A DNA stretch of 64,000 nt from the NCBI GenBank assembly GCA_045646345.1, contig JAZRKN010000014.1, forward strand, positions 97,882 through 161,881, in the 5' to 3' direction. This DNA comes from Candidatus Scatovivens sp. (GTDB taxonomy: Bacteria > Bacillota > Clostridia > TANB77 > CAG-508). Within the stretch, counting starts at the first letter, position 1; each line of letters begins with the position of its first letter. The notes under the pieces are model-generated. The model made no database searches, was not told where the DNA came from, and saw only the letters and a list, made by a program, of their open reading frames with translations. The position numbers and the translations under genes were made by a program. Of this stretch, positions 35,500-59,473 are shown piece by piece.

Positions 35500-35528
35500 T
35501 TGAAAAACGTTAAAAAATGGTATATAAT
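35500..35528 (+). promoter_or_regulatory. Sigma-A promoter of pilin 1
   Basis: TTGAAA-17 bp-TATAAT, followed by an AAAGGAGG RBS. Confidence 0.75.
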
Positions 35529-35560
35529 ATATTTAAGTATAGTAAAAGGAGGATTTTATT

Positions 35561-35944
35561 ATGGCAAAATTAATGAAAGTAATGGCTGTTGCTTTATTAG
35601 TTGTTATGGTAGTTGCAGCTCTTGCAACATCAGCTAATGCAACAATGTCGTTCAATGCTGTTACAACAGATTCTGTTGTACAAGGAGCTTCAGATTCATC
35701 TGGTGCTGCTTCAAGTATTAACAGAATTATTGGATCTGTTTTAACAATCGTTCAAGTAGTTGGTTGTGGTGTTGCTGTTATTATGTTAATCGTATTAGCT
35801 ATTAAATACATTTCAGCTGCTCCTGGAGACAAAGCAGATATCAAAAAACATGCTGTTGTTTACGTAGTAGGTGCTGTAGTATTATTCGCAGCTAGCGGTA
35901 TCTTACAAATTGTTAAAAACTTTGCTGGAAACATCAAAGCGTAA
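35561..35944 (+). CDS. TrbC/VirB2-family pilin 1 (probable major pilin)
   Basis: Signal peptide (ANA), variable region, then two TM helices joined by IKY.SAAPGDKADIKKHA. Has its own promoter and terminator. Confidence 0.85.
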   Translation: MAKLMKVMAVALLVVMVVAALATSANATMSFNAVTTDSVVQGASDSSGAASSINRIIGSVLTIVQVVGCGVAVIMLIVLAIKYISAAPGDKADIKKHAVVYVVGAVVLFAASGILQIVKNFAGNIKA

Positions 35945-35959
35945 TAGTTTTAAGATCTT

Positions 35960-35992
35960 AAAAAGGAATGTCTTTGAGGCATTCTTTTTTTT
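35960..35992 (+). terminator. Intrinsic terminator after pilin 1
   Basis: AAAAGGAATGTCT-TTG-AGGCATTCTTTTTTTT. Confidence 0.85.
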
Positions 35993-36078
35993 GCTTTTAT
36001 TTTTGTGAAAAATATTAAACAATATTTACAAATAAAATTTTATAAGTTAATATTAATATAATAGAATGTGGTATATTG

Positions 36079-36107
36079 TTGAAAAAAATGTAAAAAAATG
36101 TTATAAT
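36079..36107 (+). promoter_or_regulatory. Sigma-A promoter for pilins 2-6
   Basis: TTGAAA-17 bp-TATAAT with an extended -10 (TGn). Confidence 0.75.
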
Positions 36108-36139
36108 AAAAATAGTATACTTAGGCGGAGGAAAATAAT

Positions 36140-56213: not shown

Positions 56214-56726
56214 ATGAAAAAAAAGGACAATAAATGGATTGCTGTTGGATTAATTGTTATTATACTTCTTGCATTAATTGCTTTTAGTACAAGAGAGAAA
56301 AAAGAAGTAATTGATTATGAAGAAATGACAAATGAAGAAATAAAAACTGTTATAGACGATAAAGTTTCTAATTTAGAGTCAATCGAATTATCGAAAAAGA
56401 ATGAAAGAGAAAGAATGGAAGTATATGTTTCAAAATTTATAGAAGCGATTGAAACTAAAAAATATGAAGACGCATATGATATGCTTTATTCAGAATTTAA
56501 AACAAATTATTTTCCTACATTAGAAAGTTTTGAAAAACATGTTAAAACAAAATTCCCTTCATATATCTCATTAGAGCATACAAATATAGAAAGAAATGGA
56601 GAAATCTATGTTTTATGGGTTACAATGAGTGATATTTTAGGAAGTAGTGATTCTGCTATTGAAATGAATTTTGTTGTTAGAGAAAATGATTTAAATGATT
56701 TTGATTTATCATTCTCAGTTAAATAG
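56214..56726 (+). CDS. Bitopic protein, possibly NTF2-like (VirB8/TcpC-like role inferred)
   Basis: One TM, then SKFIEAIETKKYEDAYDML helix pattern followed by beta strands. Confidence 0.55.
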   Translation: MKKKDNKWIAVGLIVIILLALIAFSTREKKEVIDYEEMTNEEIKTVIDDKVSNLESIELSKKNERERMEVYVSKFIEAIETKKYEDAYDMLYSEFKTNYFPTLESFEKHVKTKFPSYISLEHTNIERNGEIYVLWVTMSDILGSSDSAIEMNFVVRENDLNDFDLSFSVK

Positions 56727-56741
56727 AAAGGAAAAGAAACT

Positions 56742-57713
56742 ATGAATTTTACAGAATATAGGTTAAGATTTAGACGTTTTTTTAGAAAATACAAAAGAGT
56801 ATTATTGGTTATATTAATTGTTTGGGCTATAATATTTTTTATAAATAAAATAGTAGGCAATTTAAATAGCGGATACTATAAAGAAAATACATATAAACCT
56901 CATACATCAGTTATAAATAATTCTAAAAAAGTGCCTACAAATATGCAAGCTTCAATAGAGGATACAATAGAACAATACATGGAATATTGTAACAATGCAG
57001 AATTTGATAAAGCGTTTGAGATGATTTCTGAAGAGTGTAGAAATTATGTGTTTGATAATGATGTTGAAAAATACATGTCATACTTATATACAAAAATGCC
57101 AACAAAAAAAGAATATGCAATCCAAAGTTATTCTTCAACAAAATACAATGGAGAAACATTGTATATATATGAAATAAAATATACAGATGATTTGTTAGCA
57201 ACTGGTTTAACAAATTCAACATATAGTTATACTCAAGAAAATATAACATTCTACTATAATGATGAAGGAAAACTTCAAATGAATGTGGGAAATTATATGT
57301 TCCATAAAGATATTAAAAATATTTCAGAAAATGAGTATTTAAAAATTGATGTTGTTGATAAAGTTGTAAATTATAGTATTGAACAATATACAGTTAAATT
57401 TACTAATAGATCAAATTACAACGTTGTAATTGCTGATGCTCAAGAAAATGATGAAGTAGTATTAATGCTACCTCAAGAAACAAGAAATCGTATGGAAGTT
57501 ACTGATATTGTATTAGAACCAAACGAGACAGAAGTGGTAACATTTACATTCCAAAAATTTGTTGATGATGGCGATGAATCAAATTCAATGTTATTCTCTT
57601 CAATAAGAGTTATGGAAAAATATTCAGGAACAGAAGATGTTGAAGAAGCAGTAATCCAATCTGAAATTGATAATGCAATAGCTAAATTCAGCATGGAAGT
57701 TAGTGTTAAATAA
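56742..57713 (+). CDS. Bitopic protein with a related NTF2-like domain plus a beta-rich C-terminal domain
   Basis: One TM. EQYMEYCNNAEFDKAFEMI parallels the previous gene. Last gene before the operon terminator. Confidence 0.55.
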   Translation: MNFTEYRLRFRRFFRKYKRVLLVILIVWAIIFFINKIVGNLNSGYYKENTYKPHTSVINNSKKVPTNMQASIEDTIEQYMEYCNNAEFDKAFEMISEECRNYVFDNDVEKYMSYLYTKMPTKKEYAIQSYSSTKYNGETLYIYEIKYTDDLLATGLTNSTYSYTQENITFYYNDEGKLQMNVGNYMFHKDIKNISENEYLKIDVVDKVVNYSIEQYTVKFTNRSNYNVVIADAQENDEVVLMLPQETRNRMEVTDIVLEPNETEVVTFTFQKFVDDGDESNSMLFSSIRVMEKYSGTEDVEEAVIQSEIDNAIAKFSMEVSVK

Positions 57714-57720
57714 TAAAAGA

Positions 57721-57770
57721 TAAAATAAAAGCTTTAAGATGATTTACATCTTAAAGCTTTTTATTTTATT
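57721..57770. terminator. Bidirectional terminator closing the T4SS-like operon
   Basis: TAAAATAAAAGCTTTAAGATG-loop-CATCTTAAAGCTTTTTATTTTA. Confidence 0.85.
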
Positions 57771-57942
57771 GGTCATTATCTTTAGTTTTGGTTAATTCAG
57801 TATTGTTTTGTTTTTTTCTATTATGCCACCATTCATAGATTAATCCACCTTTTTTATACCATCCAGCAATTCTTCCCCAATAAACGAAGAATCCTACGAT
57901 GATAAATAATCCGATTCCTAAATGAATATAAATTTGCTCCAT
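57766..57942 (-). CDS. Small Trp/Gly-rich membrane protein, 58 aa, not in the ORF track
   Basis: GAGGT RBS. MEQIYIHLGIGLFIIVGFFVYWGRIAGWYKKGGLIYEWWHNRKKQ... ends in the shared terminator. Confidence 0.6.
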   Translation of the reverse strand: MEQIYIHLGIGLFIIVGFFVYWGRIAGWYKKGGLIYEWWHNRKKQNNTELTKTKDNDQ

Positions 57943-58150
57943 ATATTTTACCTCGTTTCTAAGATTATCTTCATTATACTATTACTTAAAGGATTTTTCA
58001 ATATACAAACTTTTTGTAATGAAAATGTAATCAGTTTACCATAAAAAACTATTGATAACAATTTTTTTATGAGATACAATGTACTTGTATAATAAGATAA
58101 TGTGATATAAAAGCCAAATTATAAAATTTTGAAGAAGGGAGGAAAGTGAA

Positions 58151-59473
58151 TTGAATAAAAATACTAATGATTATAAAGCTGATGCTGCCAAACTTTCCAG
58201 CCTTCTAAAAGAAGTACAAGATATAAGGTATGGTAGGGCGCCTGCAAAAGTTTTACCAAATCAAAAAGAAGAGATACAATTTAATAGGATATATGTTGTG
58301 GATCACAGATTTAATGCTGTTGGAGCAATAATTGGAATATTATTTGTAATATTATTTACAATGACAATAAAAGGAGGCTATATTTTCGCTTCTTCAGAAG
58401 AGGAAAGGATTGCAATAGATACATTTGAGGCGAATAGAAGTGCAATAAATATTATAGATACAATTTCTCAAAATATAGGAGATTTTACTAAAAAAGATAT
58501 TATAACAAGAGAAGTTGATGTTGAAGCAGAAACTAAATATGTTGAAACAAATCTTTTACCAAAAGATGAACAAGTTGTTACACAAGAAGGTGTAATTGGA
58601 AAAATTGAACAAACTGTAATTTTGACTTATGAAAATGGTCAATTGAAAAGTGAAACTGTTGTAGGAGAAATAACAAAAGTAGAAGCAGTTCAAAAAATTG
58701 TAGAAGTTGGAACTTCAGAATTTTTACTTGATAATCAAGTTCATATTGGTGATGTGATGTACACTAAAGAAGAAATAAAAATGTTTGGTTCTGAAAACGA
58801 AAATGACTTAATTTGCTACATTTATGAACATATTAATGTTGTATTAGAATCAGAAAAAGATGGATGGGCAAAAATTTCAGTAGATGGAATAGAAGGGTAT
58901 ATAAAATCTGAATATATTACTTCTGAAGCAGTAACTCCTGGAATAGCAGAAAAGTCAAGAATTAAAAGATTAAATTTAAGTTTAAAACCAGAGATGGAAT
59001 TAAATAAACCAAGTGGTTTGACAAAAGATGATTTCGTTAAAGTACTTTCTGGAATTCCAAATGATTCAAATAAAATTTTTGAGAATAATGCAGAAGTATT
59101 TTTTGAAATGGAACAAAAATATAATGTAAATGGAATTTTCTTAGCAGCACTAGGAATGCATGAAAGCAATTGGGGAACATCAACAATTGCGAGAGAAAAG
59201 AAAAATTTATTTGGATATGGTGCATATGATTCTTCTGCTTATGAATCATCAATTGTATTTCAAGACTATAAAGAGGGGATTGAAACTGTTGCGAAATCAT
59301 TAGTTAAGAATTATTTAAATGCAGAAGGAACTATAATATATGATGGAGAAATAGCAAAAGGTACATATTTTAATGGACCAACACTTGCAGGTATTAATGT
59401 AAGATATGCAAGTGATACAAATTGGGCTACAAGAATATATAATATAATGGCTTCATTATATGAAAAATTATAA
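58151..59473 (+). CDS. Membrane-anchored cell-wall hydrolase: G5 + SH3 + GH73-like glucosaminidase
   Basis: TM; G5 (VVTQEGVIG...KIVEVGT); SH3 (GWAKI...EGYIKSEYI); HESNWG, KKNLFGYGA and YASDTNWA motifs. TTG start after GGGAGG. Confidence 0.85.
   Translation: MNKNTNDYKADAAKLSSLLKEVQDIRYGRAPAKVLPNQKEEIQFNRIYVVDHRFNAVGAIIGILFVILFTMTIKGGYIFASSEEERIAIDTFEANRSAINIIDTISQNIGDFTKKDIITREVDVEAETKYVETNLLPKDEQVVTQEGVIGKIEQTVILTYENGQLKSETVVGEITKVEAVQKIVEVGTSEFLLDNQVHIGDVMYTKEEIKMFGSENENDLICYIYEHINVVLESEKDGWAKISVDGIEGYIKSEYITSEAVTPGIAEKSRIKRLNLSLKPEMELNKPSGLTKDDFVKVLSGIPNDSNKIFENNAEVFFEMEQKYNVNGIFLAALGMHESNWGTSTIAREKKNLFGYGAYDSSAYESSIVFQDYKEGIETVAKSLVKNYLNAEGTIIYDGEIAKGTYFNGPTLAGINVRYASDTNWATRIYNIMASLYEKL

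What the first reader, a model, noticed from the sequence alone, without database searches (positions are those of the whole stretch)
35500..59473. Domesticated, apparently non-conjugative T4SS-like machine with 7 pilins and 4 VirB6-like paralogs
Seen: a co-oriented ~22 kb locus of seven VirB2/TrbC-type pilins, PrgI, VirB4, four VirB6-like paralogs and four bitopic proteins, followed by a G5-SH3-glucosaminidase. No relaxase, VirD4, integrase, replication gene or att repeat is visible at the locus. It is flanked by housekeeping genes (ArsC family; tRNA-Arg, tadA, ffs, dnaX). Known: conjugation systems of Gram-positive bacteria usually have one VirB6 and carry a relaxase and coupling protein. 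Expanded VirB2/VirB6 sets characterise host-interaction T4SSs (Rickettsiales rvh, Bartonella Trw), and pilin-rich T4SS loci occur in Patescibacteria. Inference: a vertically inherited adhesion or protein-delivery apparatus of a possibly parasitic or epibiotic clostridial lineage. I recall a report of conserved pilins in the TANB77 clade, so the pilins may be known even if the machine is not; that needs checking.
Basis: partly seen in the sequence, partly recalled or inferred. Interest (0 to 1): 0.9.

Follow-up and report, generated by a model that had tools for sequence, protein, structure and literature searches.

The report
Domesticated secretion machine of gut TANB77
Nearly every sampled genome of an uncultured order of gut Clostridia (TANB77) carries, as fixed chromosomal genes, a conjugation-type secretion machine with multiplied pilin and channel genes and no canonical DNA-nicking relaxase of its own, likely captured from a large plasmid and likely used to attach to and exchange material with other cells, as in parasitic Patescibacteria.

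Summary
The locus is real: seven VirB2-like pilins, VirB3/PrgI-like, TrsD-like, VirB4, four VirB6-fold paralogs and bitopic proteins. It is not a decayed ICE. A close VirB4 ortholog occurs in 114 of 121 sampled order genomes but only distant ones in 4 of 241 other Clostridia; its tree follows rpoB at family level and dN/dS is 0.01-0.10. The lineage is TANB77/CAG-508. The best plasmid matches of VirB4, the second ATPase and the MOBC-like gene lie on one family of large clostridial plasmids, the likely donor; no canonical MOBC was found in 121 genomes. Pilins and VirB6 tails evolve fast. De novo purine synthesis is nearly absent (4/121). Best reading: a Patescibacteria-like contact machine; chromosomal DNA exchange is the main rival. 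The published TANB77 pilins belong to a different (Tad) locus. This scan noted the pilin array and VirB6 paralogs earlier in other genomes; the scattered core genes, donor and tree tests are new here. Function is untested.

The parts
35561..38813 (+). Array of seven VirB2-like pilins (35561-35944, 36140-36514, 36537-36917, ~36943-37335, 37345-37719, 37737-38141, 38427-38813): signal peptide, variable mature N-terminus, conserved two-helix hairpin
   Evidence: PF18895 hits; alignment, 20-46% pairwise identity
38825..39160 (+). VirB3/PrgI-like two-TM protein
   Evidence: No library hit; ortholog profile hits plasmid genes in the same position, one annotated PrgI; found in 23 of 26 relatives' loci
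39161..40429 (+). TrsD-like protein (bitopic; homologous to the N-terminal half of full-length VirB4)
   Evidence: Hit to positions 54-226 of the 894-position NF045975 model, E 4e-5; plasmid orthologs E 3.5e-57 and 6.8e-36; TrsD described in PMC12102498
40449..42440 (+). VirB4 ATPase (C-terminal ATPase half), Walker A and B intact
   Evidence: NF045971 6.7e-61; Walker A and DEAW present in 31 of 31 orthologs
42457..43677 (+). Short VirB6-fold protein (core only)
   Evidence: AF2 model pLDDT 83.9; top hit TrwI/VirB6 in Foldseek (E 0.5) and VIA-align (Z 9.7, 233 aligned, rmsd 4.3)
43681..46412 (+). Two paralogous bitopic proteins (387 and 515 aa) of unknown function, seen only in a subset of the family
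   Evidence: Mutual HMM hits; present in 5 of 27 loci, all family f1
46426..56192 (+). Three extended VirB6 paralogs (1416, 945, 881 aa) with fast-evolving hydrophilic C-terminal tails
   Evidence: Core paralogy; family hits NF045848 54/73, NF045889 49/73, T4SS_pilin hairpin 50/73; tail identity 45% or less where VirB4 is 87-97% identical
56214..57713 (+). Two related bitopic proteins (170 and 323 aa), weak NTF2-like hits; VirB8 candidates by inference
   Evidence: DUF3887/DUF4864/MecA_N hits in 2-3 of 18 members; profile hits a gene downstream of VirB6 on the C. beijerinckii plasmid, E 8e-4; not folded
58151..59473 (+). G5-SH3-glucosaminidase; possible VirB1 substitute, not a conserved part of the locus
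   Evidence: Pfam; within the fetched span in 4 of 27 loci

Best explanation
TANB77 bacteria carry a vertically inherited chromosomal type IV secretion system, likely captured once from a large clostridial conjugative plasmid, that likely builds a variable pilus and channel to grip other cells and move macromolecules across the contact, rather than to spread a mobile element. Shown: order-wide presence, conserved gene order, family-level tree congruence, purifying selection, intact ATPase motifs, two unlinked coupling-type ATPases, an S1 + degenerate MOBC-like gene pair, and fast divergence of pilins and VirB6 tails. Inferred steps: (1) signal peptides are removed and pilins pool in the membrane; (2) VirB4/TrsD, anchored by VirB3, extract pilins on a VirB6 platform whose first hairpin is itself pilin-like; (3) variable pilins and VirB6 tails would set target specificity; (4) the two coupling ATPases would load substrates, with the nuclease-dead MOBC-like protein and S1 protein as possible adaptors; (5) the contact would serve a host-dependent lifestyle (purine and often fatty-acid auxotrophy), as in Saccharibacteria.
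For: VirB4 match in 116 of 121 order genomes, 114 after dropping two with only distant hits; 148 of 151 family genomes, 146 with E below 1e-80; 4 of 241 other Clostridia at 29-39% identity. Pilins, TrsD, VirB4 and VirB6 together in 26 of 26 relatives' loci chosen for long contigs, with 1-7 pilins and 1-6 VirB6-hitting ORFs. RF distance to rpoB 20, 18 and 20 of 54 for VirB4, VirD4 and the MOBC-like gene, against 16 for rpoB halves and 53.6 for shuffled labels; dN/dS 0.010-0.099 against 0.014-0.093 for rpoB in six close pairs. VirD4 118/121, second ATPase 118/121, MOBC-like 116/121. The MOBC-like protein has a wHTH + restriction-nuclease fold but T/S-G and E-x-[VI]-R-R in 33 of 34 and 34 of 34 sequences where a plasmid MOBC has PD and ExD. 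PF13814 gives at most one weak match per genome (83 of 121, 37 bits or less; the plasmid MOBC scores 107). Same plasmid family tops three searches with one pilin and one VirB6. PurD in 4 of 121, FabF in 52 of 121. ComEC in 120 of 121 gives a separate DNA-uptake route. Patescibacteria show the same gene set, pilin arrays, unlinked T4CP and rare relaxases.
Against: No substrate, target cell or expression data. The degenerate MOBC-like gene and S1 gene are DNA/RNA-binding types kept under selection and lie within about 17 kb of VirB4 in at least 20 of 33 family-f3 genomes, which fits nucleic-acid traffic as well. Relaxase classes other than MOBC were searched only in the window's genome, and that assembly lacks ComEC and TadA, so it has gaps or losses. 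One taxon (G017) moves in the VirB4 tree with strong support and family f1 has only 57% support there. The VirB6 fold match is top-ranked but tied with a designed helical protein. Auxotrophy can be met by scavenging in the gut. VirD4 in this genome is split by a +1 shift and is intact only if CGG-N is read through.
Confidence: 0.5

Rival explanations
1. The machine is a domesticated DNA-exchange system between TANB77 cells (Hfr-like export or Ced/Ted-like import), started by the S1 + MOBC-like pair or by repair nucleases, with variable pilins giving kin recognition.
For: Two coupling ATPases and a relaxase-fold protein are core and under purifying selection; the invariant Glu203, Arg206/207 and Tyr222 remain; linkage to the operon in family f3; archaeal Ced/Ted are chromosomal VirB4+VirB6+pilin systems without relaxase; VirD4 sits beside an SbcD/AAA-like pair in f1 and f5.
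Against: Canonical catalytic residues are missing in the TANB77 protein and in its wider family; on a Paenibacillus plasmid this gene coexists with a separate canonical MOBC, so it is likely an accessory; ComEC already provides DNA import in 120 of 121 genomes.
Confidence: 0.3
2. The machine only assembles an adhesive pilus for mucus, epithelium, particles or biofilm and translocates nothing.
For: Pilin array with rapid divergence; no effector candidates found; VirB4 and VirB6 suffice in principle for pilus assembly (established T4SS knowledge).
Against: Coupling proteins are not needed for piliation in model T4SSs (established knowledge), yet two are kept in 118 of 121 genomes each, with Walker B intact in 29 of 31 VirD4s; a Tad pilus is already order-wide.
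Confidence: 0.12
3. The resident machine mainly mobilises hitch-hiking elements, such as the MOBV/integrase island carrying a restriction-modification cluster on contig C1.
For: MOBV relaxase next to a tyrosine integrase and R-M genes.
Against: Hitch-hiking would not explain housekeeping-level retention and selection across five families.
Confidence: 0.05
4. It is an ordinary integrated or decayed ICE.
For: Homology to ICE and plasmid proteins; flanking genes differ between families.
Against: Near-universal, mostly single-copy, tree-congruent and under purifying selection, with partner genes scattered among housekeeping operons; no att repeat seen.
Confidence: 0.02

Closest known systems
Patescibacteria (Saccharibacteria) chromosomal T4SS (PMC12102498; reviewed in PMC12857230)
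   Same: Monoderm MPF_FATA-like set of VirB2 pilin array, PrgI/VirB3, TrsD, VirB4 and VirB6; coupling protein usually unlinked; relaxase rare; small genomes with ComEC and a type IV-class pilus.
   Different: Host is a Clostridia order; the nearest VirB4 relatives found are on clostridial plasmids; up to six VirB6 paralogs with long tails; a second coupling ATPase and an S1 + degenerate MOBC-like pair are core. A tree including Patescibacteria VirB4 was not built.
Transfer region of large Bacillota plasmids (C. beijerinckii NZ_CP107023.1; group of C. botulinum records KT897275-80 seen in listings only; Paenibacillus NZ_CP106993.1)
   Same: Gene order pilin-VirB3-TrsD-VirB4-VirB6; TraM-recognition-type coupling protein; S1 + MOBC-like pair.
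   Different: Plasmids have one pilin gene upstream of VirB3, one VirB6 and a linked peptidase, and the Paenibacillus one has a canonical MOBC. TANB77 has the genes fixed, scattered and amplified. Its CD1115-type VirD4 matches other elements best (38-40%), so it likely has a separate origin.
Archaeal Ced/Ted domesticated DNA-import systems (PMC9905601)
   Same: Chromosomal VirB4 + VirB6 + VirB2-like pilin, no canonical relaxase, pilin-like N-terminal part of VirB6.
   Different: Bacterial; keeps VirB3, TrsD and two coupling proteins; multiplied pilins and VirB6.
Rickettsiales rvh T4SS and Bartonella Trw (recalled; rvh paper PMC2653234 seen in a search listing only)
   Same: Vertical inheritance, scattered genes, expanded VirB2 and extended VirB6 paralogs.
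   Different: Those are diderm VirB/D4 systems with VirB9/VirB10 cores acting on eukaryotic hosts; no such hits here.
TANB77 Tad pilus cluster (Kim et al. 2024, PMC11680825)
   Same: Same bacterial order, order-wide conservation, about seven pilin-like genes.
   Different: Different machine (CpaB/TadZ/TadA/TadB/C); the main text has no mention of T4SS, VirB or conjugation.

Membership tests
Conjugative MPF_FATA element (ICE/plasmid) | VirB4 ATPase with VirB3 and VirB6 | tested here: met
Conjugative MPF_FATA element (ICE/plasmid) | Coupling protein | tested here: met
   Two, both unlinked: C11:129170-131231 (NF045973 over cut-off) and C15:214730-217099
Conjugative MPF_FATA element (ICE/plasmid) | Catalytically canonical relaxase that co-occurs with the machine | tested here: not met
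   Only a degenerate MOBC-like core gene and a MOBV on a separate island; other classes searched in one genome only
Conjugative MPF_FATA element (ICE/plasmid) | Mobility hallmarks: patchy distribution, integrase/att or replicon | tested here: not met
Conjugative MPF_FATA element (ICE/plasmid) | VirB8-like and VirB1-like components | tested here: inconclusive
   Weak NTF2-like hits only; glucosaminidase in 4 of 27 loci
Patescibacteria-type T4SS | Array of divergent VirB2 pilins with PrgI, TrsD, VirB4, VirB6 on the chromosome and unlinked T4CP | tested here: met
Patescibacteria-type T4SS | VirB4 inside the monophyletic Patescibacteria clade | not tested
   No Patescibacteria VirB4 was in hand; tree of 19 rows groups TANB77 with a clostridial plasmid and two other Clostridia (long-branch warning)
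Patescibacteria-type T4SS | Essential for epibiotic growth on a bacterial host | not testable with these tools
   TANB77 is uncultured
Ced/Ted domesticated DNA import | Chromosomal VirB4 + VirB6 + pilin without canonical relaxase | tested here: met
Ced/Ted domesticated DNA import | Contact-dependent import of chromosomal DNA | not testable with these tools
   needs cultures
MOBC relaxase (for C15:217772-218707) | wHTH plus restriction-endonuclease-like fold | tested here: met
   PF13814 over cut-off; AF2 pLDDT 91.4, FokI/XisH/MarR-type matches at E 1e-3 to 1e-1
MOBC relaxase (for C15:217772-218707) | Catalytic PD...ExE/D acidic motif | tested here: not met
   No Asp in 34 of 34; second acid replaced by V/I in 34 of 34; motif intact in the Paenibacillus plasmid MOBC; motif definition recalled
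VirB6/TrbL | Structural likeness to TrwI/VirB6 | tested here: met
   Rank 1 in both searches, DotA rank 3 in VIA-align; scores moderate
VirB6/TrbL | Sequence match to Pfam TrbL models | tested here: inconclusive
   0 of 73 hit TrbL at E 0.01; Atlas TrbL clusters at 0.86-0.87, lead only

The most novel reading that the evidence does not exclude
TANB77, a common uncultured gut order linked to immunotherapy response, is a lineage of contact-dependent parasites or epibionts of other gut bacteria that independently built a Patescibacteria-like machine from a plasmid, using two coupling ATPases and a nuclease-dead relaxase as the substrate adaptor; this would explain why it resists pure culture and would be a second origin of this lifestyle, inside Clostridia.
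Probability: 0.3. Interest if true: 0.92.

Novelty: new variant of a known kind. Interest (0 to 1): 0.72.

Why it matters
A 2025 review (PMC12857230, passages read) calls Patescibacteria the one exception among Gram-positive/monoderm T4SSs in carrying VirB2 pilins. An entire Clostridia order keeps such a machine more faithfully than fatty-acid or purine synthesis. This gives a concrete hypothesis for why TANB77 is uncultured (host co-culture needed), a second family of surface pilins relevant to its immunotherapy link, and a case where the likely plasmid ancestor is still identifiable, so domestication (relaxase loss, scattering, pilin/VirB6 amplification) can be traced.

Tried and rejected
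Expression: no RNA holder listed; the one run was probably DNA and gave only relatives' contigs, so no evidence either way. Sequence searches of solved structures with the MOBC-like, VirB6 and 323-aa alignments found nothing significant. Atlas search of a VirB6 tail gave no usable hit. The first idea that the MOBC-like gene is an active domesticated relaxase was weakened by its missing acidic motif and by a separate canonical MOBC on a related plasmid. The idea that the T4SS replaces ComEC, prompted by its absence in this genome, was dropped when ComEC was found in all 120 relatives. A bootstrap IQ-TREE run timed out; trees use a fast search with SH-aLRT. G155 was left out of trees (no rpoB hit) and G227 was not included. 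Pilin counts were discarded because short VirB6 fragments inflate them. The MOBC-like profile found no match in 300 other genomes of the phylum sample. PMC8035907 held no usable passage in the part available; PMC12306168 does not cover TANB77. Supplements of the cited papers were not read and could list these genes.

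
Full report
Observation. The window lies on contig C14 of a 1.79-Mb, 19-contig, 96.7%-complete assembly. 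The ORFs are as described. Seven pilins hit PF18895 and are the only strong hits in the genome. VirB4 hits CD1110- and Mycoplasma-ICE-type models; the 422-aa ORF before it matches the N-terminal part of a full-length VirB4 model, the TrsD arrangement described for pGO1 and Patescibacteria (PMC12102498, parts 2-4 of 7 read). The four polytopic proteins share a ~370-residue core. In a 73-member alignment, 54 and 49 members hit two Mycoplasma ICE membrane-protein families, 17 hit pLS20_p028, 50 hit the pilin model through an internal hairpin, and none hit Pfam TrbL. The predicted structure has R388 TrwI/VirB6 as top hit in Foldseek (not significant, E 0.5) and VIA-align (Z 9.7, tied with a designed helical protein at 9.3, DotA third at 8.4). 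The pilin/VirB6 kinship is already published (PMC9905601, passages).

Lineage. Named records with 85-94% identical VirB4 include Ca. Scatovivens, which belongs to family CAG-508 of order TANB77 (PMC13106387, passages).

Distribution. VirB4 matched 148 of 151 family genomes (146 with E below 1e-80) and 116 of 121 order genomes in all five families (114 after dropping G153 and G205, which have only distant hits). In a class sample it matched 4 of 241 genomes outside the order, at 29-39% identity. I fetched 26 order loci, chosen for long contigs, and four outgroup loci. All 26 have pilins, TrsD, VirB4 and VirB6; pilins number 1-7 and VirB6-hitting ORFs 1-6, some being split genes; flanks differ between families. 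The glucosaminidase appears in 4 of 27 loci and the 387/515-aa pair in 5 of 27.

What lies elsewhere. The genome has a CD1115-type VirD4 on C11 among housekeeping genes, a second coupling-type ATPase on C15, and next to it a Replic_Relax (MOBC-like) gene downstream of an S1-domain gene. These match 118, 118 and 116 of the 121 order genomes, nearly always as one close ortholog. The S1-MOBC-like pair is conserved in all five families, often convergent with the second ATPase, and lies within about 17 kb of VirB4 in at least 20 of the 33 family-f3 genomes with a hit (coordinates). A MOBV relaxase beside an integrase and restriction genes is an ordinary island. MOBP, MobL, MOBT, MOBQ, MOBF and MOBH models gave no hit over cut-off in this one genome.

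Is the MOBC-like gene a relaxase? Its model (pLDDT 91.4) shows a winged helix and a restriction-nuclease fold. But 34 of 34 TANB77 sequences lack the Asp of the PD motif and have V/I at the second acidic position, while Glu203, Arg206, Arg207 and Tyr222 are invariant; the motif definition is recalled. Distant relatives are degenerate in the same way and are sometimes fused to S1 domains. A Paenibacillus plasmid carries both this S1-linked gene and a separate canonical MOBC with H, PD and ExD. Across the order, PF13814 gave one weak match in each of 83 of 121 genomes and never two; the places I compared coincide with the degenerate gene. So the canonical relaxase was likely lost and an accessory paralog kept.

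Inheritance. For 30 genomes, Robinson-Foulds distance to rpoB was 20, 18 and 20 of 54 for VirB4, VirD4 and the MOBC-like gene, against 16 for the two rpoB halves and 53.6 for shuffled labels. Families f2, f3 and f5 are clades in all four trees (SH-aLRT 98.8 or more); f1 has 57 in VirB4, where G017 moves, giving 8 of the 9 strongly supported conflicts. dN/dS in six close pairs was 0.010-0.099, like rpoB. Against relatives with 93-97% identical VirB4, pilins are 34-89% and the longest VirB6 tail 7-45% identical by best single alignment (split genes lower these figures).

Origin. In PLSDB, the top matches of VirB4 (41%), the second ATPase (29%) and the MOBC-like gene (25%) are the same large Clostridium plasmids, then Paenibacillus, Bacillus and Brevibacillus megaplasmids; all 14 records matching the MOBC-like gene are typed non-mobilizable. 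The C. beijerinckii plasmid has pilin-VirB3-TrsD-VirB4-VirB6 in the same order, the ATPase and the S1 pair. A 19-row tree makes TANB77 VirB4 a clade (99) beside that plasmid and two other Clostridia, with long-branch warnings. VirD4 matches other elements best.

Lifestyle. PurD was found in 4 of 121 genomes (controls 14 of 14), FabF in 52 of 121, ComEC in 120 of 121. This genome has FabF, FabD, FabG, ACP and PlsX and lacks ComEC and TadA hits, which warns that absences in it may be gaps. The combination of small genome, purine auxotrophy, ComEC, a Tad pilus and a pilin-rich relaxase-less T4SS parallels Saccharibacteria, where the T4SS is essential for epibiotic growth. That TANB77 lives this way is inference.

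Mechanism and verdict. Domestication is shown; function is not. I put 0.5 on contact-dependent attachment with translocation serving a dependent lifestyle, 0.3 on chromosomal DNA exchange, 0.12 on adhesion only, 0.05 on mobilising islands, 0.02 on a decayed ICE. Searches for TANB77 with pilin (10 papers), with secretion system (6 papers), with lifestyle terms, and for CAG-508/TANB77 with T4SS/VirB4 listed no paper describing this system (listings only, open-access library). Five earlier notes of this scan described the pilin array or VirB6 paralogs in other genomes; I read them after forming my reading.

Side result. VirD4 here is split by one extra base at Walker A. Sixteen of 29 relatives have an extra C one codon further on. 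Genome-wide, in-frame CGG marks a +1 frame switch in 13 of 100 eligible sites against a median of 1.1% for other codons; in relatives' loci 85 of 452 (overlapping loci, not independent) against 12 of 297 in outgroups. No tRNA-Arg(CCG) was among 33 tRNAs found (incomplete set). CGG-N is likely decoded as glycine with a +1 shift, which would make VirD4 intact; one paper search found nothing and another was uninformative.

Noticed in passing
G000 C11:129667, C15:219149 and 11 other sites; L025-L051: In-frame CGG followed by a long +1 frame beginning with a glycine codon recurs in TANB77 genes, including VirD4 and the S1 gene; likely clade-wide +1 frameshifting or four-base decoding of CGG-N as Gly. 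Many split genes in these genomes may be intact.
   Followed up: partly
L001:8217-8741 (G000 C11:128216-128743): A 175-aa protein with no Pfam/NCBIfam hit sits just upstream of VirD4 in 24 of 25 loci across all five families; candidate VirD4 partner.
   Followed up: partly
L115 (G468:C25): A genome outside the order has one pilin, VirB3, TrsD, VirB4, VirB6 directly followed by a Tad-like pilus cluster; the Paenibacillus plasmid L317 has the same pairing, so the TANB77 Tad cluster may come from the same captured element.
   Followed up: no
G000 C1:212776-225956 (L203): Island with MOBV relaxase, tyrosine integrase, cytosine methylase, Sau3AI-like nuclease and an ATPase/helicase pair, inserted near rplS/trmD.
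   Followed up: partly
window:24587-30372: Type I restriction-modification operon (HsdM, HsdS, HsdR by sequence reading) followed by a Panacea-like antitoxin-type pair at 31215-32125 (labels recalled, not scanned).
   Followed up: no
secondary hits, e.g. G017:C3:35483-37273, G233:C1:87057-88853: Many TANB77 genomes carry a second, distant (24-31%) VirB4-like gene of about 610 aa that this genome lacks; ICE or second resident system not determined.
   Followed up: no
family f2 (G155, G159, G163 and others): The second coupling-type ATPase is tandemly duplicated in all nine f2 genomes.
   Followed up: no
P0170, P0176, P0181: The degenerate MOBC-like domain is fused to NACHT/pentapeptide or Roc-COR domains in 1400-1735-aa proteins elsewhere.
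   Followed up: no
G000 whole genome: No ComEC and no TadA hit although ComEC is in 120 of 120 relatives; a region may be missing from the assembly or lost.
   Followed up: partly
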